NCBI GenBank assembly: GCA_016186705.1 | Contig: JACPLB010000001.1 | Span: forward strand, 11,106-75,105 | Direction: 5' to 3' | Origin: Candidatus Kaiserbacteria bacterium | GTDB taxonomy: Bacteria; Patescibacteriota; Minisyncoccia; Phycocordibacterales; JABMNX01 | Length of the DNA stretch: 64,000 bases | Shown here: one piece after another, positions 3,657-46,377 of the stretch | How the letters are laid out: every line of letters begins with the position of its first letter | How positions within the stretch are numbered: position 1 is the stretch's first letter | Notes under the pieces: generated by a model | The model's database searches: none | Told to the model about the DNA's origin: nothing | Seen by the model: only the letters and a program-made list of their open reading frames with translations | Program-made: the position numbers and the translations under genes

Positions 3657-4615
3657 GCCGTACGAATACTTTTTTCATACTCGCGCTCCTCTTCTTTTTT
3701 CTTTTGCCTTCTTTTTCGGAAACCGTACTTGCCGCGATTAACGCGAAGCATGTCGGATTTGTGAATTCTTCACTATGGTTTGACCGCGAACCATTTTTCT
3801 CAAACGAGAACGTGCGAGTGTACACCGCGCTCGCCAACAGCACGCCGGCGGATTTCAACGGCACTATTGAGTTTTACGACGGGGACATACTCATCGGCTC
3901 TTCAGAGGTATCGCTTGAACGAAACGGCGGCTTTGAAGTCGTCTGGGCTGATTGGACTCCTCATGAAGGAGACCATACGGTACGGGTAAGAATTGTTGAC
4001 GCTATATTGATACCTCCGGAAGGAGAGCCGATACCCGTTACGTACGATGAAGAACCGTCGTCCGCACTCTCTCGTTTTGTGGACACGGATACTGATGGCG
4101 ACGGGGTCGGGAACAGGGACGATACCGATGATGACAATGACGGCATACCTAACGAGAAAGACGACATGCCGCTCGTCGCTTTATCTCTTCCGAACAGTAC
4201 GACAGGTAAGGAAGAAGAGAAAGATTCAATACGTTCTCTTGCCGAGGACCTCTCGGGTCAAGCGGTTTTGCAAATCGGAAACGTCGCTTCAAGCACGATG
4301 CCTCGGATTGTTGCAGGCGTAGAGACGGCGCTTGAGGCAATTGAAGAATTCCGCATCGGCCAGAACGAAAAAGTTGACGCGCGAATAAAGACGATACGAG
4401 AGAGAATTGCCGAAGACCGCGCGGGCTTTGAGGAGTTGCCTCAAAGTGAAGAGGAGCGGAAGAACGCGCCGTGGAACCAGCTTGAGCTCTTGGCACTCAC
4501 TGCCGCAGGGTATACATTGAGCAATAGAATCGTCTTTTATCTTTTTGCCGCGTTTATTGCGTATGTTATTCTAAAGACAATCATTCCGTGGATGTATTAT
4601 AAAATTCGCGGATAA
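3653..4615 (+). CDS. Secreted/membrane-anchored protein with thrombospondin type-3-like Ca-binding Asp-rich repeats
   Basis: N-terminal signal peptide, DTDTDGDGVGNRDDTDDDNDGIPNEKDD repeats and a C-terminal hydrophobic anchor. Confidence 0.6.
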   Translation: MSRTNTFFILALLFFFLLPSFSETVLAAINAKHVGFVNSSLWFDREPFFSNENVRVYTALANSTPADFNGTIEFYDGDILIGSSEVSLERNGGFEVVWADWTPHEGDHTVRVRIVDAILIPPEGEPIPVTYDEEPSSALSRFVDTDTDGDGVGNRDDTDDDNDGIPNEKDDMPLVALSLPNSTTGKEEEKDSIRSLAEDLSGQAVLQIGNVASSTMPRIVAGVETALEAIEEFRIGQNEKVDARIKTIRERIAEDRAGFEELPQSEEERKNAPWNQLELLALTAAGYTLSNRIVFYLFAAFIAYVILKTIIPWMYYKIRG

Positions 4616-5563: not shown

Positions 5564-5596
5564 ACTGGAAGCTCTAAGCTAAAAGCTGTAAGCTAT
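5564..5596 (+). repeat. AAGCT-heptad element copy (ACTGGAAGCTCTAAGCTAAAAGCTGTAAGCTA) 4 nt upstream of the rseP ATG
   Basis: Four tandem AAGCTNN heptads; near-identical to the copy at 40135-40167. Confidence 0.8.
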
Positions 5597-15519: not shown

Positions 15520-15549
15520 CAAGCTTAAAGCTCTTAGCTGAAAGCTGAA
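15520..15549 (+). repeat. AAGCT-heptad element copy (CAAGCTTAAAGCTCTTAGCTGAAAGCTGAA) 3 nt upstream of the rsmH ATG
   Basis: Forward orientation, immediately 5' of the start codon. Confidence 0.75.
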
Positions 15550-21576: not shown

Positions 21577-21609
21577 CTGAAAGCTCAAAGCTCTAAGCTA
21601 AAAGCTAAT
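21577..21609 (+). repeat. AAGCT-heptad element copy (CCTGAAAGCTCAAAGCTCTAAGCTAAAAGCTAATC) ending 2 nt before tRNA-Glu
   Basis: Forward orientation directly 5' of the tRNA gene. Confidence 0.75.
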
Positions 21610-21611
21610 CT

Positions 21612-21683
21612 GGCCCTATCGTCTAACGGTCAGGACACAGGCTTCTCAAGCCTGGAATCGGGGTTCGATTCCCCGTAGGGTCA
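21612..21683 (+). tRNA. tRNA-Glu (anticodon CUC)
   Basis: Hand-folded cloverleaf: acceptor GGCCCTA/TAGGGTC, D-arm GTCT...GGAC, anticodon stem CAGGC/GCCTG with loop TTCTCAA, T-arm CGGGG-TTCGATT-CCCCG, discriminator A. CCA is not encoded. Confidence 0.8.
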
Positions 21684-32200: not shown

Positions 32201-32231
32201 AGCTTGTAGCTTTCAGGTTTTAGCTTTTAGG
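32201..32231 (-). repeat. AAGCT-heptad element copy (minus-strand reading CCTAAAAGCTAAAACCTGAAAGCTACAAGCT) 5 nt upstream of the recR ATG
   Basis: Same orientation as the downstream gene. Confidence 0.7.
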
Positions 32232-39245: not shown

Positions 39246-39278
39246 GGTTTTAGCTTAAAGCTTTTAGCTTTCAGAGTA
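39246..39278 (-). repeat. AAGCT-heptad element copy directly upstream of the rpmA ATG (minus reading CTGAAAGCTAAAAGCTTTAAGCTAAAACC)
   Basis: Same orientation as rpmA, 6 nt from the start codon. Confidence 0.7.
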
Positions 39279-40134: not shown

Positions 40135-40167
40135 ACTGGAAGCTAGAAGCTAAAAGCTGTAAGCTAA
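40135..40167 (+). repeat. AAGCT-heptad element copy (ACTGGAAGCTAGAAGCTAAAAGCTGTAAGCTAA) 4 nt upstream of the ATG at 40172
   Basis: Differs from the 5564 copy at only 2 positions. Confidence 0.8.
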
Positions 40168-40786: not shown

Positions 40787-41488
40787 ATGAATCTATCTCA
40801 GAAAAAAGAAGGGGAGGCGCTTCGCTGTAAAATCAATCGAAAGAAATTCCCGCAGAACAGTCATGACGGGGAAATCGCCGAAAGGGTAGGGAGGATAGCG
40901 TCGGAGTTCACGCAAGGATTTGAAGTGCTCCAAAAATATGACCTTGCGGCGACCTTTTTCGGCTCCGCCCGTTGTTCTTTGGGAAGCGCTCTCTATGAGG
41001 ATGCTTCAAAGCTCGCGTATCGCCTCTCACGCACTGGATTTACGATTATCACGGGGGGCGCCGCCGGAGTCATGGAGGCGGCGAACAAAGGAGCTCACGA
41101 CGCCGGAGGGGATTCCGTCGGTCTTAATATAACGCTTCCGGAAGAGCAGTCGGGAAATGATTACACGACAGACCGCCACGATTTCCACTACTTTTTTACG
41201 AGAAAAGTCATGCTTACGTTCGCTTCTGAAGTGTATATTTATTTCCCCGGAGGGTTCGGGACACTCGATGAATTCTTTGAGATAGCAACCCTTATTCAGA
41301 CAAAGAAGATCGAACCCATTCCGATAATCCTCATAGGAGAGGAGTACTGGAGACCGCTTGTGAAGTGGATTGAAGAAGAGCTCCTTAAGAAACACAAGAC
41401 GGTCTCTAAAGAGGATACGCGCATCTATACTCTGGTTGATTCGGTTGACGAGGCGTATAATGAAATTGTCAAACAAGTGTGCGAATAG
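40787..41488 (+). CDS. LOG-family protein (TIGR00730, cytokinin riboside 5'-monophosphate phosphoribohydrolase-like)
   Basis: ITGGAAGVMEAANKGA and PGGFGTLDEFFE motifs. Confidence 0.75.
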   Translation: MNLSQKKEGEALRCKINRKKFPQNSHDGEIAERVGRIASEFTQGFEVLQKYDLAATFFGSARCSLGSALYEDASKLAYRLSRTGFTIITGGAAGVMEAANKGAHDAGGDSVGLNITLPEEQSGNDYTTDRHDFHYFFTRKVMLTFASEVYIYFPGGFGTLDEFFEIATLIQTKKIEPIPIILIGEEYWRPLVKWIEEELLKKHKTVSKEDTRIYTLVDSVDEAYNEIVKQVCE

Positions 41489-41489
41489 C

Positions 41490-41606
41490 ATGACGGCGTC
41501 TTTCAAACACAAGCGTTGGTATCATGACAAGCAAATACTGGCTCTTGTTACGGGCTTTATAAGCACGGTTTTGACCTCCATTAACCTCATACTCGGGATT
41601 ATTTAA
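41490..41606 (+). CDS. Possible 38-aa membrane peptide
   Basis: ATG 2 nt after the LOG stop; hydrophobic C-terminus. Weak. Confidence 0.15.
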   Translation: MTASFKHKRWYHDKQILALVTGFISTVLTSINLILGII

Positions 41607-41632
41607 AGGACTCTTGGAGTTATTGAGAGTCA

Positions 41633-41660
41633 TTGACAACTTCTATTAATATGTTAGAAT
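41633..41660 (+). promoter_or_regulatory. Sigma70-like promoter (TTGACA-16 nt-TAGAAT) upstream of the lysozyme-like gene
   Basis: Consensus -35 and a near-consensus -10 seen in the sequence. Confidence 0.35.
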
Positions 41661-41735
41661 GTATGAAATTCGGCATTGCCGAGTTTTTTGTTTTAACAGC
41701 CTAAGAATCGGCTTATTATATTCACCTTACTTATC

Positions 41736-42128
41736 TTGATGCTCGGACCCGCCACGGGTCAGGCGCCGCTCACTCCCGTAACTTCGAGGGACATAGTAAC
41801 GTCGCCGCGATACGTTGAGCAGTACGTACGCGCGTACTTCTCTGACATTCCCGCTCTTGCTCTTATTGCGGAATGCGAATCGCACTTTCGTCATTACGAT
41901 GAAAACGGTAACGTACTTCGCGGAACGAAGAATAAAAGCGACGTTGGGGTGATGCAAATCAACGAAGCGTACCATCTTGATGCCGCGCTTGAAATGAACG
42001 TAGACCTCTACGCGCTTGAAGGAAATCTTTCTTACGCGAGACATCTCTACGAAACAATGGGGCTTCAGCCATGGAAACATTCAAAAAAGTGCTGGTATCC
42101 TCAAACGCTTGCGTTCGCGCAGTTGTAA
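41736..42128 (+). CDS. Lysozyme-like / lytic transglycosylase (GH23-like) domain protein with no obvious signal peptide
   Basis: AECESHFRHYDENGN...DVGVMQINEAYH matches the CESGG...GLMQIN catalytic region of SLT/lysozyme-like folds. The N-terminus lacks a hydrophobic leader, so it may be truncated. Confidence 0.45.
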   Translation: MMLGPATGQAPLTPVTSRDIVTSPRYVEQYVRAYFSDIPALALIAECESHFRHYDENGNVLRGTKNKSDVGVMQINEAYHLDAALEMNVDLYALEGNLSYARHLYETMGLQPWKHSKKCWYPQTLAFAQL

Positions 42129-42160
42129 CACGAAAGCCGCTCCTGGAGCGGCTTTCGTGT
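42128..42160. terminator. Perfect bidirectional terminator (ACACGAAAGCCGCTCC-tgg-AGCGGCTTTCGTGT)
   Basis: 15-bp perfect stem between convergent genes. Confidence 0.7.
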
Positions 42161-42182
42161 TATTAAAGGGTGTAAGGGCGTT

Positions 42183-42578
42183 CTATTTCTCGATTGAGAA
42201 CTGTCCGGCGCCGAATCGCACCATGTAGAGGAGCGCGGCGACAATGCCCATGTTTTTAATAAAGAACATTTGTTGTACTTGGTCGGCAAAATTCGTGTGG
42301 AAGATAAAGGAGGCGGCGATGGTAAAGATTCCTAGTGCGAGCGCTCCCCAGAAGATTCGGTAACCAAGAATGACGGAAAGTCCACCGAGTATTTCAACAA
42401 CGATGGCGATAGTGATGGCAAGCTCCGGGGAGGGAAGTCCTGCCGATTGGGCAAATAAGACCATACCGGCAAATCCGGTGATTTTTTGTATGCCTCCCAT
42501 CAAAAACATTCCTCCGACAAGAACACGTGCGACAAGCGGCGCGAATGGCAGCAATGTATGCACAACATTATTATTCAT
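42183..42578 (-). CDS. DoxX-family membrane protein
   Basis: 4 TM; LVARVLVGGMFLMGGIQK, typical of DoxX; internal ATG start. Confidence 0.7.
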   Translation of the reverse strand: MNNNVVHTLLPFAPLVARVLVGGMFLMGGIQKITGFAGMVLFAQSAGLPSPELAITIAIVVEILGGLSVILGYRIFWGALALGIFTIAASFIFHTNFADQVQQMFFIKNMGIVAALLYMVRFGAGQFSIEK

Positions 42579-42769
42579 AGAAGTAACAATTTTTGTAATA
42601 AGCTGGTAATAATTGAAGTATAGCAGATTTATTGAAAGGGAAGAGGGAGAACGCAAGCTTATTGTGTATAGTTTAAAACATACTCAATGTCGCACAATAT
42701 ACCTTTCGCGACAGGCATAGTTAACATCTTTAAGTCACCTCTTAGATTTAGATTTTGTATACTTAAAGG

Positions 42770-42920
42770 TTGAGAGGCCTTTGGTAAGCCCGAGTGGGTT
42801 CGGGCGGAGGCCTTTCAACACATGCTTTCGAGGAAATGAAGCCCCTTAGAGCATGCTTAGCCCACCCAGGGCTACGCAAGAAACTTCCGGAGCTCTCCCC
42901 CAGGGAGCTCCGGCTTTTTC
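42770..42920 (+). ncRNA. Candidate structured small RNA 1, ending in a 9-bp hairpin (CCGGAGCTC/GAGCTCCGG) + CTTTTTC
   Basis: ORF-free and highly self-complementary (AGGCCT..GCCCGAGTGGGTTCGGGC..AGGCCT; CATGCT...AGCATG), with an intrinsic terminator. Class unidentified. Confidence 0.35.
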
Positions 42921-43075
42921 TTATTATTTCTCGTGTTGTGGTATGCTATGCGTATCCTGTTCATCTTCCCCAGGACAGGATACGCAACCTGAGAGAACCC
43001 CTCTCTCGGTCCCCAACTAACCCCGAACCCGGTGCACTTTCTTGGGTTTCTTGCACCGCGTTCGGGGTTTTTTCT
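42921..43075 (+). ncRNA. Candidate structured small RNA 2, ending in a 15-bp hairpin (CCCCGAACCCGGTGC/GCACCGCGTTCGGGG) + TTTTTT
   Basis: Internal hairpins (GCGTATCCTGT...ACAGGATACGC; GAGAGA-ACCC-CTCTCTC) plus a strong terminator. Confidence 0.35.
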
Positions 43076-43215
43076 TGACTTACGAGAGAACTCTTGCAAC
43101 AATTTTAAACGGAAGGTCTTTGAAGGTCTGAGTGGTTCAGACTGGGGACCTTTCGGCTAACTAGGTCCAAAGGGTTCACCCCCGGAGTCCAGAAGGGACT
43201 CCGGGTTCTATTTTT
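43076..43215 (+). ncRNA. Candidate structured small RNA 3, ending in a 10-bp hairpin (CCCGGAGTCC/GGACTCCGGG) + TTCTATTTTTT
   Basis: Hairpins GTCTGAGTGGTTCAGAC and GGACCTTTCGGCTAACTAGGTCC plus a terminator. Confidence 0.35.
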
Positions 43216-43285
43216 TGTTATCAATCTAAACAGCTCAACCCACGAGTACTCCGGATTGAGCCGTTTAGAAGAATACTATGACTTG

Positions 43286-43504
43286 TTACATCTGTCCTCC
43301 CGACGAACACTCCCGGCAATTTGATTTATGAGTGAAGAGTTCATAGACAGCAGCAAGGCCAATTATGATGTAGATGGTACGGGATACAGCGTCCGCGGAA
43401 CCTCCAAAGAGGTCTCCAATCTCCCACTGGAAAAGCCCGAGCGCGAGCCAGTTAAGACCTCCGACGACGAGAACGAGAAACGCAACCATGTGGACTGTTT
43501 TCAT
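43286..43504 (-). CDS. DUF378-family small membrane protein
   Basis: VVGGLNWLALGLF...RTIYIIIGLAAVYEL, the DUF378 signature. Confidence 0.7.
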   Translation of the reverse strand: MKTVHMVAFLVLVVGGLNWLALGLFQWEIGDLFGGSADAVSRTIYIIIGLAAVYELFTHKSNCRECSSGGQM

Positions 43505-43640
43505 GCGTGAAATAGAGTTAGTGGTGCGATAACAATCGACCTTACTGTTTTATTATCCCATTACACACATGCGCCACAAGTGTGTTGTGCACATTTTTGG
43601 TCCCCTCTCTAAAAGCTAAAAACTAACATCTGAAAGCTTT

Positions 43641-44993
43641 TTACAGGTACGAGAGCGGATTCAGGTAAGCGTCAAGCGGCGCAATCGGTATCTCCACATT
43701 CCTGCAGTTGACGCTCTTCGTAAAGCGTTCAATTCGGACCCCCTGTGTTGCGTACACGGTAAAGTGAAGGTGCGGACCGGTCGAGTAGCCCGTGTTTCCG
43801 CTAAAGCCGATGACATCTCCCGTTGATACGTTTTGCCCAAGGTTAACCGAAATATGCGAGAGGTGCGCGTAGAGCGTTGTAAGTCCGTTGTTGTGCTTCA
43901 CGAGCACCCATTTGCCGTACGAATAGCATCCTCTCTGTGTGTCGGTATTTCCGGTCCCCGTCACGGTACCGGTAAGTGCCACCTGCACTTTTGTGCCGAC
44001 GCTCGCCCTGAAGTCGACGCCATTATGACCCGCTCCCCTGTAAATTTGCGGGTTTTGAGTGGCAAACGGCGTGTTGCCGAAATATTGTGTAATACAGTAA
44101 ATATTTTTTAATTGGCCGTTAAACGCCTTACATCCCTGCATGTAGCTGTCGGAAAAAGGAAACCGCAGGATACCGGAACCGTATGGAGGAATGCTGTTGG
44201 GGTCAATCGCGATGCGCAATTGGGACTCAAGTTCAAGGAGGTCATTCTCAAATTGCTCGCGAGCGGCGATTTTCTCGTTCAATAATTTTTGATACTCCGA
44301 TTCTTTCTGCACGGTCTTGTTCAGAAGAATATTTTGTTCGGACAGCGTGCCTTCCAAGACAACTTTTTGTCCGGCAAGTTCGGTATTGTAATTCGTCAGC
44401 TCAATTTTCTTTCTCTCTGAAGACGTTTTAGTGGTCTCGAGGTCTTTCTTAAGTTTAATAAGGTCTCGGAGCTCGTCCCGAACGACAATCTGAAACCGCT
44501 GAAGCGTCTCGAGCTGGTCCCAAAATTCGTTCAGATTGTCATGCCCGAGAACAACCTCAATCATTGACTGGGATTCCATTTCGTTGATATTCCGCAGTGC
44601 CAGAGACACCGCGTCCGTATTGTTTTCAATACGTCCGCTCTTATCCGTAATGTCCCGAGAAAGCTCCTGTATCTGAAGCGTTGTCGAGTAAATGCGATTT
44701 TGCGTAATTTGTATGTTTGTTAGGAGCTTTTTCCTCGAGAGATTGAGTTCGCTTACGGTGCTCTCTAACGTCCTTTTCTCGCCCCCGATGTGTGTGAGCT
44801 CCGTCTCATACCGAGCAATGTCTTTCTCAAGTTCATCTATTTTTGCGCCATAGTCGGAGATTTGTTTCTGAATCTCCTCAATGCTTTGAGCGGAAGCATT
44901 CGGCGGAGCTATGCTTATCCACCCGACCGCAAAAACCGCGAGTATACAGAGCGTGCGAATATGCGTAAAAATATGTATCCTCTCCCCTGTCAT
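43641..44993 (-). CDS. M23/LytM peptidase with N-terminal coiled-coil (EnvC-like murein hydrolase activator)
   Basis: Signal peptide, long coiled-coil and HNGVDF...GYSTGPHLHF, the LytM motifs. Confidence 0.8.
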   Translation of the reverse strand: MTGERIHIFTHIRTLCILAVFAVGWISIAPPNASAQSIEEIQKQISDYGAKIDELEKDIARYETELTHIGGEKRTLESTVSELNLSRKKLLTNIQITQNRIYSTTLQIQELSRDITDKSGRIENNTDAVSLALRNINEMESQSMIEVVLGHDNLNEFWDQLETLQRFQIVVRDELRDLIKLKKDLETTKTSSERKKIELTNYNTELAGQKVVLEGTLSEQNILLNKTVQKESEYQKLLNEKIAAREQFENDLLELESQLRIAIDPNSIPPYGSGILRFPFSDSYMQGCKAFNGQLKNIYCITQYFGNTPFATQNPQIYRGAGHNGVDFRASVGTKVQVALTGTVTGTGNTDTQRGCYSYGKWVLVKHNNGLTTLYAHLSHISVNLGQNVSTGDVIGFSGNTGYSTGPHLHFTVYATQGVRIERFTKSVNCRNVEIPIAPLDAYLNPLSYL

Positions 44994-44997
44994 ATCG

Positions 44998-46377
44998 TTA
45001 TAAAAGTTGCTGTTGGGCTTCTTTTAAACGTGCGAGCGTCTCGTTTTTTCCGAAAATTTCCGCAAGCGTAAACGGGTCAGGAGATTTTTCTTTTCCCGAA
45101 AGTGCCACGCGCATCGGCCAGAGCACCGTTCCTCTCCCCTTCTCCTCGGCGTATCTCCATATCGCGTTTTTCACCGTCTCTTTCGTGAATGTCTGCTCTT
45201 GAACGTTCTCAAGCAGTCCAATGACAGCCGATACCACTAAAGCCGCTGTCTCTATAGAGTCTTTTTTCCACTGGATGTCCGTTTCCATGTGAGGCGGAGC
45301 AAAAAAATAATCGAACTCTCCTTTCTCACTCAACTCCCCCAGCTCTTTGAATGTACTTACACGTTCAATAATCGTATCGACTGCTTTTTTGAGGCGTGCG
45401 TCTGAATACTGCGGAAGTCGTCTCGTCTCTCTTGAGAGCGAAGCGGCAACTCGCCGAAACACTTCGGCTTTCGGAAGCTTCTTGAGATGTTCCCGATTGA
45501 ACCAGTCGAGTTTGCGTGAGTCAAACACTGCTCCGCTTTTCTGGACCTGTTCCAGCGAAAAATCTTTTATAAGCTCTTTCATCGTGTACATCTCTTTGTC
45601 AGTACCGGGATTCCAGCCAAGAAACGCGAGGTAATTCAGCATTGCTTCGGGAAGACAGCCGCCCTCCCGATATTCGGTGATTGACGTACTTCCTTTCCGT
45701 TTTGACAGTTTTGAGCGGTTAGGAGCCAAAATGAGCGGAATATGAGCATAATGAGGCTCTTCCATGCCGAGAGCTCTCTGTATGAGTATCTGCCGCGGAG
45801 TATTCGAGATATGGTCATCCCCTCTGATAACGTGCGTTACATTCATCTCATGGTCGTCAATCACAACCGCGAGATGGTAGAGCGGTTCTTTTATTGAACG
45901 CGCGATAACAAAATCTCCAAGCTCTTTGGTATTGAAAGAAATATCGCCTCTGATAATGTCTCTGAAAGAAATATCGGTGCCGGAATTTTTCAAACGCACG
46001 ACTTCGACTTCCCTTCCCTCTTTTTCACTTTTTTCTTTTGACACGTACGCGCGTCCGTTCTTAACAAGCCGTGCGATATACTCCGCGTACACATCCGTTC
46101 TTTCCGACTGGCGAAAAAGAGCGTCAAAGGAAAGCTCAAGCCAGTTCAATCCGTCAAGGATGTCTTTTTCATATTCTTTTTTGCTCCTTTCTTTGTCGGT
46201 ATCTTCGATTCGCACGATGAACTCTCCTCCATGATGCCGTGCGAAAAGAAAATTAAACAACGCGGAACGCGCCGTACCGATATGAAACATGCCTGTGGGA
46301 CTCGGCGCGATTCGTGTTATTACTTTCTCCGAAAAAAACTTCCCGAGGAGTTTTTGGAACAGGAGATTATGACTCAT
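44998..46377 (-). CDS. gltX: Glutamyl-tRNA synthetase
   Basis: RIAPSPTGMFHIGTARSALFN (HIGH) and KLSKRKG (KMSKS); start set at the internal ATG 6 nt after the murG stop. Confidence 0.85.
   Translation of the reverse strand: MSHNLLFQKLLGKFFSEKVITRIAPSPTGMFHIGTARSALFNFLFARHHGGEFIVRIEDTDKERSKKEYEKDILDGLNWLELSFDALFRQSERTDVYAEYIARLVKNGRAYVSKEKSEKEGREVEVVRLKNSGTDISFRDIIRGDISFNTKELGDFVIARSIKEPLYHLAVVIDDHEMNVTHVIRGDDHISNTPRQILIQRALGMEEPHYAHIPLILAPNRSKLSKRKGSTSITEYREGGCLPEAMLNYLAFLGWNPGTDKEMYTMKELIKDFSLEQVQKSGAVFDSRKLDWFNREHLKKLPKAEVFRRVAASLSRETRRLPQYSDARLKKAVDTIIERVSTFKELGELSEKGEFDYFFAPPHMETDIQWKKDSIETAALVVSAVIGLLENVQEQTFTKETVKNAIWRYAEEKGRGTVLWPMRVALSGKEKSPDPFTLAEIFGKNETLARLKEAQQQLL

What the first reader, a model, noticed from the sequence alone, without database searches (positions are those of the whole stretch)
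42770..43215. Three tandem terminator-capped structured RNAs in a 450-bp ORF-free gap
The gap between DoxX and DUF378 (both minus-strand) has no plausible protein-coding ORF, but on the plus strand it forms three consecutive segments of ~150, ~155 and ~140 nt. Each is rich in internal hairpins and each ends in a strong intrinsic terminator: a 9-bp, 15-bp and 10-bp GC stem followed by a U-tract. No plus-strand protein gene lies upstream that these terminators could serve. That pattern suggests independent small RNA genes or one multi-domain ncRNA. I could not match it by eye to RNase P RNA, tmRNA, SRP RNA or 6S RNA consensus blocks, so it may be a lineage-specific or undescribed RNA.
Basis: seen in the sequence. 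Interest (0 to 1): 0.7.

Follow-up and report, generated by a model that had tools for sequence, protein, structure and literature searches.

The report
Three tandem small-RNA genes beside dif
A 450-base gene-free gap in an uncultivated Kaiserbacteria (CPR) genome most likely holds three separately transcribed, previously undescribed small structured RNAs, and it sits next to what looks like the chromosome's dimer-resolution (dif) site at the replication terminus.

Summary
Window 42770-43216 carries three strong plus-strand intrinsic terminators with no plus-strand gene to serve. That is 3 of about 9 strong plus-strand terminators in 64 kb.

Each unit also has its own promoter-like site placed so that transcription would start at the base of a long 5' hairpin. 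No Rfam family, tRNA or tmRNA matches, and no ORF is conserved.

Only two relatives are close enough to align (M23 peptidase 86% and 80% identical). One keeps all three units and the other keeps units 2 and 3. Stems are kept through compensatory and G-U changes that work only on the plus strand. Units 1 and 3 are paralogues.

The best reading is a lineage-specific cluster of independent sRNA genes. That is a new member of a known kind. Function is inferred only: unpaired C-rich stretches suggest pairing to G-rich targets, but this genome uses few Shine-Dalgarno sites.

It sits at the GC-skew peak and the gene-orientation switch and is probably dif. The flank holding the RNAs is hypervariable among relatives.

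There are no expression data and only three alignable genomes.

The parts
42687..42714 (.). Neighbouring element, not part of the RNAs. A 28-bp dif-like site, ATGTCGCACAA-TATACC-TTTCGCGACAG, with 11-6-11 palindromic architecture.
   Evidence: The core TCGCACAATATA is exact in 56 of 89 fetched loci (50 of the 83 that are independent relatives) and almost always in the same orientation. It is a single copy in the window, with PWM score 37.9 against 5.7 for the next best independent site. It sits at the GC-skew peak.
42721..42763 (+). Unit 1 promoter region. There are two candidates: TTAACA-16-TAGATT (42721-42748), and the -10-like TATACT (42758-42763).
   Evidence: From the consensus scan. TATACT lies 6-7 nt before the hairpin base in both the window and L087. 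The promoter assignment is inferred.
42769..42919 (+). Unit 1 RNA, about 150 nt. It has a 5' bipartite hairpin (42769-42819), hairpins at 42822-42854 and 42855-42877, terminator T1 (42887-42913) and a U-tract.
   Evidence: Fold z-score -5.7. The hairpin is homologous to that of unit 3 and to L087 unit 1, with compensatory changes. Terminator.
42939..42947 (+). Unit 2 extended -10, TGgTATGCT.
   Evidence: Read from the sequence. L087 and L088 have TGaTATACT at the matching place. Inferred.
42949..43073 (+). Unit 2 RNA, about 125 nt. It has a hairpin at 42949-42986 with loop CAUCUUCCCC, a hairpin at 42989-43009 with loop AACCC, a linker containing CCCCAACUAA, a long bulged terminator T2 (43019-43069) and U6.
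   Evidence: Fold z-score -8.7. The inverted repeats are I1 and I10. The T2 base CCCCGAACCCG/GGGUUCGGGG is conserved in L087 and L088, with an A-U to G-C swap in L088.
43075..43103 (+). Unit 3 promoter: -35 TTGACT, a 17-nt spacer, then TGc-AACAAT.
   Evidence: From. The block GGGGT(C/T)TTTTTCTTGAC and the fixed 30-nt distance from TTGAC to the hairpin base are conserved in all three genomes.
43110..43216 (+). Unit 3 RNA, about 107 nt. It has a 5' bipartite hairpin (43110-43155), a linker ending in CACCCCC, terminator T3 (43181-43205) and a U-rich tail.
   Evidence: Fold z-score -3.3. The three-genome consensus has 31 pairs, 6 of them compensatory. The covariance model R1 scores 63.4 bits on the plus strand.
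43225..43269 (-). Hairpin just after the DUF378 stop codon, probably the DUF378 terminator. It is not part of the RNA units.
   Evidence: Inverted repeat I3. Detected on the minus strand. A hairpin of different sequence occupies the same position in L087 and L088.

Best explanation
The gap encodes three independent plus-strand small non-coding RNA genes of about 150, 125 and 107 nt.

Each gene has the same layout: a sigma-70-like or extended -10 promoter, a long 5' stem-loop that starts at the predicted transcription start, a short single-stranded segment or loops rich in C, and a strong Rho-independent terminator. Units 1 and 3 are diverged paralogues that share the 5' bipartite hairpin. Unit 2 is a different RNA.

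The cluster is specific to a narrow Kaiserbacteria lineage. It lies in the fast-changing flank of a dif-like site at the replication terminus.

What is shown: the terminators, the structures, strand-specific covariation, the absence of coding potential and the absence of any known family.

What is inferred: the promoters and the transcription itself. Also inferred is the mode of action. The most likely mode is trans-acting base pairing of the unpaired C-rich stretches with G-rich sites in mRNAs, as in RsaE/RoxS or the alphaproteobacterial ar14/'cuckoo' sRNAs. In that model the 5' hairpin and the terminator serve mainly to stabilise the RNA. I put about 0.3 on this mode of action.
For: Terminators and folding. 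Their density is far above the window background.

Promoter-like sites, each 6-8 nt before a hairpin base, are conserved in position in L087 and L088.

Homologous units occur in the only two alignable relatives. L087 has three units and L088 has two.

The 5' hairpin alignment of 5 sequences gives:
- 94.7% of cells paired.
- 7 of 19 pairs with changes on both sides.
- A covariation score of 0.616 against 0.417 in shuffles (0 of 500 reach it), collapsing when the partners are slid.
- Many G-U pairs.

Strand choice: the covariance model scores 54-65 bits on the plus strand against 12.7 bits on the reverse strand.

Whole-unit consensus folds have 6, 8 and 6 compensatory pairs.

The RNA bodies diverge faster than the flanking genes, which are 76-85% identical at the nucleotide level, yet they keep their structure. 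No peptide is conserved. No Rfam, tRNA or tmRNA match is found.

Unpaired CCC triplets number 18 against 10.1 +/- 3.0 in shuffles (0 of 200 reach it), and unpaired GGG triplets number 0. The best sub-threshold Rfam hit for both window unit 2 and L011 unit 3 is ar14, a family with C-rich loops.

Analogous 5'-hairpin-plus-terminator units of unrelated sequence sit at the same place and in the same orientation in L011 (three units) and L010 (one unit).
Against: There is no expression evidence of any kind.

Only three genomes and five hairpin copies are available. With so few related sequences, shuffle-based covariation tests can be inflated.

The promoter calls are consensus matches, and for unit 1 two candidate -10 boxes compete.

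31 of 53 long ORFs in the window have no SD-like motif and many look leaderless. A classical anti-SD mechanism would therefore have few targets.

No significant complementary target was found in the 64 kb.

The C-rich enrichment is modest, and several units have no unpaired CCC at all.

The region next to the dif-like site is hypervariable, so the units could be passengers or remnants with little function.
Confidence: 0.6

Rival explanations
1. The units are remnants or cargo of mobile DNA that integrated at the adjacent dif-like site by Xer-type recombination, in the manner of an IMEX. They would be leftover promoter, hairpin and terminator pieces with little or no present function for the host.
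For: The flank on this side of the site is hypervariable. L095 and L096 are identical up to the site and unrelated immediately after it. L007 and L008 carry other ORFs there. Unit 1 is missing in L088. In L010 a single unit lies between the site and a second, half-like site with PWM score 14.1. Full 28-bp sites occur in about half of 120 IMG/VR contigs. A tyrosine recombinase gene lies next to the site in L092 and L113.
Against: No second dif-like site flanks the units in the window, L087 or L088. The hairpin model has no hit in the 120 viral loci. Stems are maintained by compensatory change, and the unit 3 promoter block is the best-conserved stretch of the gap, which argues for selection.
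Confidence: 0.15
2. The hairpins are only a stack of transcription terminators, an insulator at the terminus, and do not belong to RNA genes.
For: Three strong terminators lie close together at the point where the two replichores meet.
Against: No plus-strand transcription enters from the left. DoxX is on the minus strand, and the last plus-strand ORF has its own hairpin at 42131-42157. This reading does not explain the 45-50-nt 5' hairpins with covariation or the promoter-like sites between the terminators. The terminators lack U-tracts on the minus strand, so they would not stop DUF378 read-through.
Confidence: 0.07
3. The gap holds one long multi-domain ncRNA, or a divergent copy of a housekeeping RNA such as RNase P RNA, tmRNA, SRP RNA or 6S RNA.
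For: The whole 450 nt is densely structured.
Against: There is no Rfam hit at gathering score, and E-value mode returns only chance-level hits. ARAGORN finds no tmRNA. Two internal terminators with U-tracts and internal promoters divide the region. Unit 1 can be lost on its own. The covariance model finds the hairpin only in the three close genomes, not in 80 Paceibacterota loci.
Confidence: 0.03
4. The gap holds a cis-regulatory leader or riboswitch array, or it encodes small proteins.
For: Terminator-capped structured elements resemble riboswitch expression platforms. A 94-codon plus-strand ORF (42794-43078) exists.
Against: There is no plus-strand gene downstream, since everything from 42183 to 63150 is on the minus strand. 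The ORF runs through two terminators and is not conserved. tblastn of all six frames gives only short matches at conserved DNA blocks, in several frames.
Confidence: 0.03

Closest known systems
Alphaproteobacterial ar14 / 'cuckoo' sRNAs (CcsR1-4, NfeR1; Rfam RF02344)
   Same: Short sRNAs arranged in tandem, each made of stem-loops with C-rich loops and ending in an intrinsic terminator. ar14 is the top sub-threshold Rfam hit for window unit 2 (22.4 bits) and L011 unit 3 (23.2 bits), in both cases over the full model.
   Different: The scores are far below the gathering score of 58.8. The CCUCCUCCC loop motif that marks that family (from my own knowledge) is absent from the window units, which have CUUCCCC, ACCCC and UCCCCCA instead. 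Each unit here has its own promoter rather than being processed from a co-transcript with a DUF1127 gene. The phylum is different.
RsaE/RoxS and the UCCC-motif sRNAs of Firmicutes
   Same: The layout of 5' hairpin, unpaired C-rich stretches and strong terminator is shared. The proposed mode of action, pairing to G-rich ribosome-binding regions, is shared too. This comparison rests on my own knowledge of those families.
   Different: There is no Rfam match. There is no conserved UCCC placement. This genome shows little SD use in the window, so targets, if any, may not be ribosome-binding sites.
Tandem paralogous sRNA genes such as PrrF1/PrrF2 or OmrA/OmrB
   Same: Neighbouring sRNA genes that arose by duplication, each with its own promoter and terminator. 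Units 1 and 3 share a homologous hairpin.
   Different: The paralogues here share only the 5' hairpin, and an unrelated unit sits between them. No chaperone or regulon is known. Copy number varies among close relatives.
dif / Xer chromosome-dimer resolution sites (for the neighbouring 28-bp element)
   Same: It is 28 bp long, with two 11-bp inverted arms around a 6-bp centre. It is single copy, lies at the GC-skew switch and is conserved across the phylum. A Xer-like recombinase gene lies next to it in some genomes, and copies occur on phage-like contigs.
   Different: The sequence differs from E. coli dif, as I recall it. The adjacent recombinase scores below the NCBIfam XerC and XerD cut-offs. 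No binding or recombination has been tested.

Membership tests
Rfam RF02344 (ar14) | Covariance-model score at or above the gathering score of 58.8 bits | tested here: not met
   Window unit 2 scores 22.4 bits. L011 unit 3 scores 23.2 bits.
Rfam RF02344 (ar14) | CCUCCUCCC anti-SD motif in the hairpin loops | tested here: not met
   The window loops read CAUCUUCCCC, AACCC and UCCCCCA. They are C-rich but do not contain the motif.
Any described RNA family (Rfam 15), including RNase P, SRP, 6S and tmRNA | A match at the family's gathering score, or an ARAGORN tmRNA call | tested here: not met
   The only Rfam hit in the window is a tRNA at 21612. Nothing is found in L087, L088, L010 or L011. ARAGORN finds nothing in 41000-45000.
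Bacterial terminator-capped sRNA gene (generic kind) | Rho-independent terminator at the 3' end | tested here: met
   T1, T2 and T3 each have a U-tract. They are also present in L087 and L088.
Bacterial terminator-capped sRNA gene (generic kind) | Own promoter upstream | tested here: inconclusive
   The evidence is consensus matches only. Unit 3 has TTGACT-17-TGcAACAAT with conserved spacing in three genomes. Unit 2 has TGnTATGCT or TATACT. Unit 1 has two competing candidates.
Bacterial terminator-capped sRNA gene (generic kind) | Structure conserved through compensatory changes, on one strand | tested here: met
   The model scores 54-65 bits on the plus strand against 12.7 bits on the minus strand. 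The sample is small, at 3 genomes.
Bacterial terminator-capped sRNA gene (generic kind) | No conserved coding potential | tested here: met
   Six-frame peptides against the relatives' gaps give no consistent frame.
Bacterial terminator-capped sRNA gene (generic kind) | A discrete transcript is detected | not testable with these tools
   No transcriptome data are available here.
Riboswitch / cis-acting leader | A co-oriented gene immediately downstream | tested here: not met
   All ORFs from 42183 to 63150 are on the minus strand.
dif site (neighbouring element 42687-42714) | 28 bp with two 11-bp inverted arms around a 6-bp centre | tested here: met
   Consensus ATGTCGCACAA TATATC TTTTGCGACAT from 58 instances.
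dif site (neighbouring element 42687-42714) | Single copy, located at the replication terminus (GC-skew switch) | tested here: met
   One site in 64 kb. The cumulative GC skew peaks at 42-44 kb and gene orientation switches at about 42150. The site lies at 49.5% of the complete chromosome OZ244961.1.
dif site (neighbouring element 42687-42714) | Bound and recombined by Xer recombinases | not testable with these tools
   The evidence is indirect only. A XerC/D-like gene lies about 60 nt from the site in L092 and about 460 nt from it in L113. Sequence identity breaks exactly at the site in L095 against L096.

The most novel reading that the evidence does not exclude
The flank of the Paceibacterota dif-like site may be a landing pad where very small, sRNA-only modules are gained, duplicated and lost through Xer-type recombination. 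In that case the three units would be mobile or exchangeable regulatory RNA cassettes, not ordinary chromosomal sRNA genes. A related possibility is that the units act in terminus biology, since they are the only head-on transcription units on that replichore in the window.
Probability: 0.12. Interest if true: 0.7.

Novelty: new member of a known kind. Interest (0 to 1): 0.4.

Why it matters
I found no literature describing regulatory RNAs in CPR/Patescibacteria. Their genomes are small and gene-dense, so a 450-nt stretch kept for three promoter-to-terminator RNA units is a concrete candidate for post-transcriptional regulation in an uncultivated lineage.

The units evolve fast but keep their shape, which makes them a compact case of sRNA gene birth, duplication and loss.

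The adjacent site is conserved across the phylum. If it is dif, it gives a simple marker of the replication terminus in Paceibacterota assemblies. It also points to Xer-dependent integration of mobile elements in these bacteria.

Tried and rejected
- An exact-pattern scan of genome contigs with the hairpin consensus of units 1 and 3 found 0 hits. The pattern was too strict, and the source genome is not in that set.
- A pattern scan of metagenome contigs with the unit 3 promoter plus hairpin found 0 hits.
- blastn and nhmmer of the units against 80 Paceibacterota loci syntenic for the M23 gene found nothing.
- The covariance model R1 on those loci, on the whole window, on 120 viral loci and on 7 more relatives returned only the five training copies and one weak hit (L049, 21.7 bits).
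- A test for enrichment of sense-strand terminators downstream of the dif-like site across 56 loci found none: 33 sense against 34 antisense. The cluster is therefore not a phylum-wide feature. A first version of this script timed out.
- A search for complementary targets in the 64-kb window gave only chance-level matches of 9-14 nt.
- A search for a second dif-like site bracketing the units in the window, L087 and L088 found none.
- I considered an integron attC-like reading of the bipartite hairpins and rejected it. The stem ends are in the wrong order (GTT...AAC only in unit 1), and the G-U pairs and U-tracts point to RNA.
- DnaA boxes are not enriched in the window.
- Literature searches for CPR sRNAs and for dif in Patescibacteria found nothing relevant.

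Full report
**Observation**

The gap lies between DoxX (42183-42578, minus strand) and DUF378 (43286-43504, minus strand). Both Pfam assignments come from the gene tables of identical contigs. The gap has no conserved ORF. It carries three plus-strand hairpins followed by U-tracts:
- T1, 42887-42913: 11 bp.
- T2, 43019-43069: 18-nt arms, 94% complementary.
- T3, 43181-43205: 10 bp.

A crude scan finds only 13 comparably strong terminator-like sites on both strands of the whole 64 kb. Eight are on the plus strand, including T1 and T3. T2 is missed by that scan because its stem is bulged. The Poisson probability of 2 or more on one strand within 450 nt is about 1e-3. The last plus-strand ORF upstream ends at 42128 and has its own hairpin at 42131-42157, and DoxX lies in between. 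The three terminators therefore serve no upstream gene. The plus strand folds better than shuffles (z = -5.7, -8.7, -3.3) and somewhat better than the minus strand.

**Anatomy**

Each terminator closes a unit that also has a promoter-like site.
- Unit 3 has -35 TTGACT (43075-43080), a 17-nt spacer and TGc-AACAAT (43095-43103). That places the start at about 43110, the first paired base of a 46-nt bipartite hairpin.
- Unit 2 has an extended -10, TGgTATGCT (42939-42947), just before the hairpin at 42949-42986.
- Unit 1 has two candidates: TTAACA-16-TAGATT, and TATACT at 42758-42763, 6 nt before the hairpin at 42769-42819.

Units 1 and 3 share a homologous 5' hairpin. It has an outer stem, a purine-rich 5' bulge, an inner stem and a small loop. 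Loops and linkers are C-rich: CAUCUUCCCC and AACCC in the unit 2 loops, UCCCCCA and ACCCA in unit 1, and CACCCCC in unit 3.

**Known families**

Rfam 15 at gathering thresholds finds only a tRNA elsewhere in the window. It finds nothing in four related loci. In E-value mode the hits are at chance level. The one recurrent hit is ar14 (RF02344), at 22.4 bits for window unit 2 and 23.2 bits for L011 unit 3, against a gathering score of 58.8. ARAGORN finds no tRNA or tmRNA in 41000-45000.

**Relatives**

The neighbouring M23 peptidase is labelled Candidatus Kaiserbacteria in NCBI. Several Logan contigs carry the identical gap. Eighty syntenic loci from GTDB species representatives, at most 70% identical in M23, show no sequence match to the units. 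Only two closer relatives exist in the protein collection: L087 (M23 86% identical) and L088 (80%). In both, the DUF378-DoxX gap is retained. L087 has all three units. L088 has units 2 and 3 but not unit 1.

The RNA bodies are too diverged for BLAST. Only the dif-like site, the end of T2 with the unit 3 promoter, and one 47-nt stretch align. The flanking genes are 76-85% identical at the nucleotide level. The structures are nevertheless kept.
- The five copies of the unit 1/3 hairpin give 19 consensus pairs with 94.7% of cells paired. Seven pairs have changes on both sides. The covariation score is 0.616 against 0.417 in shuffles (0 of 500 reach it), and it collapses when partners are slid.
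- Many pairs are G-U, which would be C-A on the other strand. A covariance model scores 54-65 bits on the plus strand and 12.7 bits on the reverse strand.
- Whole-unit consensus folds give 6 of 31 compensatory pairs for unit 3, 8 of 26 for unit 2 (including an A-U to G-C swap in the T2 base) and 6 of 26 for unit 1.

With three genomes these numbers are suggestive, not statistically secure.

The element ATGTCGCACAA-TATACC-TTTCGCGACAG (42687-42714) lies 55 nt upstream of unit 1. Its 12-nt core is exact in 56 of the 89 loci fetched up to then. Of the 83 that are independent relatives rather than identical copies of the window genome, 50 carry it. It is almost always in the same orientation relative to the M23 gene, and M23 identity goes down to about 43%. 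The consensus is a 28-bp, 11-6-11 inverted-arm site, and it is a single copy in the window.

The evidence that this is a dif/Xer site is as follows:
- The window's cumulative GC skew peaks at 42-44 kb. Gene orientation switches from plus to minus at about 42150.
- In the complete chromosome OZ244961.1 the site lies at 49.5% of the length.
- In L092 a XerC/D-like recombinase gene lies about 60 nt from such a site. In an IMG/VR contig another tyrosine recombinase gene lies about 460 nt away.
- L095 and L096 are identical up to the site and unrelated right after it.
- About half of 120 IMG/VR hits to the left arm also carry the right arm, which was not part of the search pattern.

I therefore read this as the dif/Xer site of these bacteria at the replication terminus. 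Binding and recombination are untested.

The DoxX side of the site is stable, with the site about 100 nt from DoxX in many relatives. The other side, where the RNA units lie, is hypervariable. In L011 (M23 60%) that flank holds three unrelated 5'-hairpin-plus-terminator units in the same orientation. In L010 (59%) it holds one such unit followed by a second, half-like site. Across all 56 loci there is no general excess of sense-strand terminators there, so the cluster is a feature of a narrow clade.

**Mechanism**

What is shown: three strand-specific, structurally conserved, non-coding units, each bounded by a strong terminator. What is inferred: that each is transcribed from its own promoter.

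For function, the only recurring sequence feature is unpaired C-runs. There are 18 unpaired CCC triplets in 12 units against 10.1 +/- 3.0 in shuffles, and no unpaired GGG. Together with the ar14-like architecture, this points to base pairing with G-rich sites, as in RsaE/RoxS or ar14/cuckoo sRNAs.

Against a classical anti-SD role:
- 31 of 53 long ORFs in the window lack any SD-like motif.
- Many ORFs have a -10 box 7-12 nt before the start codon, which suggests leaderless mRNAs.
- No target stands out in the 64 kb.

I give about 0.6 to 'independent sRNA genes' and about 0.3 to the pairing mechanism. The rivals are remnants or cargo of Xer-mediated integration (0.15), a bare terminator stack (0.07), one long or housekeeping RNA (0.03), and a cis-leader or small protein (0.03).

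**Verdict**

This is a real, undescribed, lineage-specific cluster of sRNA-like genes, a new member of a known kind. Interest is moderate at 0.4. The kind is ordinary. The setting makes it worth a transcriptome check: a CPR genome, the position beside a putative dif site, and rapid turnover with copy-number change.

Noticed in passing
window 42687-42714: A 28-bp palindromic 11-6-11 site, ATGTCGCACAATATACCTTTCGCGACAG. Its 12-nt core is exact in 56 of 89 fetched loci (50 of 83 independent relatives). It is probably the dif/Xer site of this phylum.
   Followed up: partly
window about 42100-42700: Replication terminus. The cumulative GC skew peaks here. Genes to the left are mostly on the plus strand, and every gene from 42183 to 63150 is on the minus strand. 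The three RNA units are the only head-on transcription units on the right arm.
   Followed up: partly
L095 3390-4010 against L096 390-1265: The two contigs are identical from DoxX up to and including the dif-like site and unrelated immediately beyond it. This is a recombination breakpoint exactly at the site.
   Followed up: partly
L092 1860-2917; L113 3345-4755: A tyrosine recombinase gene lies next to the dif-like site. Its best NCBIfam hits are XerC at 232 bits and XerD at 224 bits, both below the curated cut-offs. This resembles single-recombinase XerH/XerS systems. No homologue is found within the 64-kb window.
   Followed up: partly
IMG/VR loci L097-L216: At least 120 viral contigs match the left arm of the site, which is about the number expected by chance. 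However, 53 of them also have 8 or more of 11 matches to the right arm, which was not searched. Many of the contigs in the hit list are 40-44 kb long. These may be phages or IMEX-like elements that use the CPR dif site.
   Followed up: partly
window 5569-5594, 15528-15546, 21581-21606, 32208-32226(-), 39252-39270(-), 40140-40165: Runs of a 7-nt repeat AAGCTNN (for example AAGCTAAAAGCTGTAAGCT) occur nine times at six places, where none is expected by chance. At least four lie just upstream of a gene start, including the tRNA at 21612. This may be a promoter-associated element.
   Followed up: partly
whole window, e.g. starts at 391, 26877, 37194, 40787, 33600(-), 49657(-): 31 of 53 long ORFs lack an SD-like motif. 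Many have a TACAAT or TATAAT box 7-12 nt before the start codon, which suggests widespread leaderless mRNAs.
   Followed up: no
L010 (about 3866-3893), L011, L087 between units 1 and 2: A C-rich stretch of the form CUCCCC(U)..UAUUC follows the first terminator in L010, L011 and L087. In L010 it is followed by a degenerate second dif-like half-site, GTGTCGTACAATATATGTGAATC.
   Followed up: no
L010, L011, L039, L025 near the dif-like site: Perfect or near-perfect DnaA-box-like TTATCCACA sequences lie within about 40 nt of the dif-like site in several relatives. They are not enriched in the window itself. Unexplained.
   Followed up: partly
L008, L095, L096 (dif-distal flank): A conserved palindrome CTCGGTTGACCGAGAA overlaps a -35-like TTGAC upstream of a small ORF in the variable flank. 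It looks like an operator.
   Followed up: no
window 42131-42157: A strong hairpin, CGAAAGCCGCTCCTGGAGCGGCTTTCG, lies between the convergent ORF 41736-42128 (plus strand) and DoxX (minus strand). It is probably a shared or bidirectional terminator at the point of convergence.
   Followed up: no
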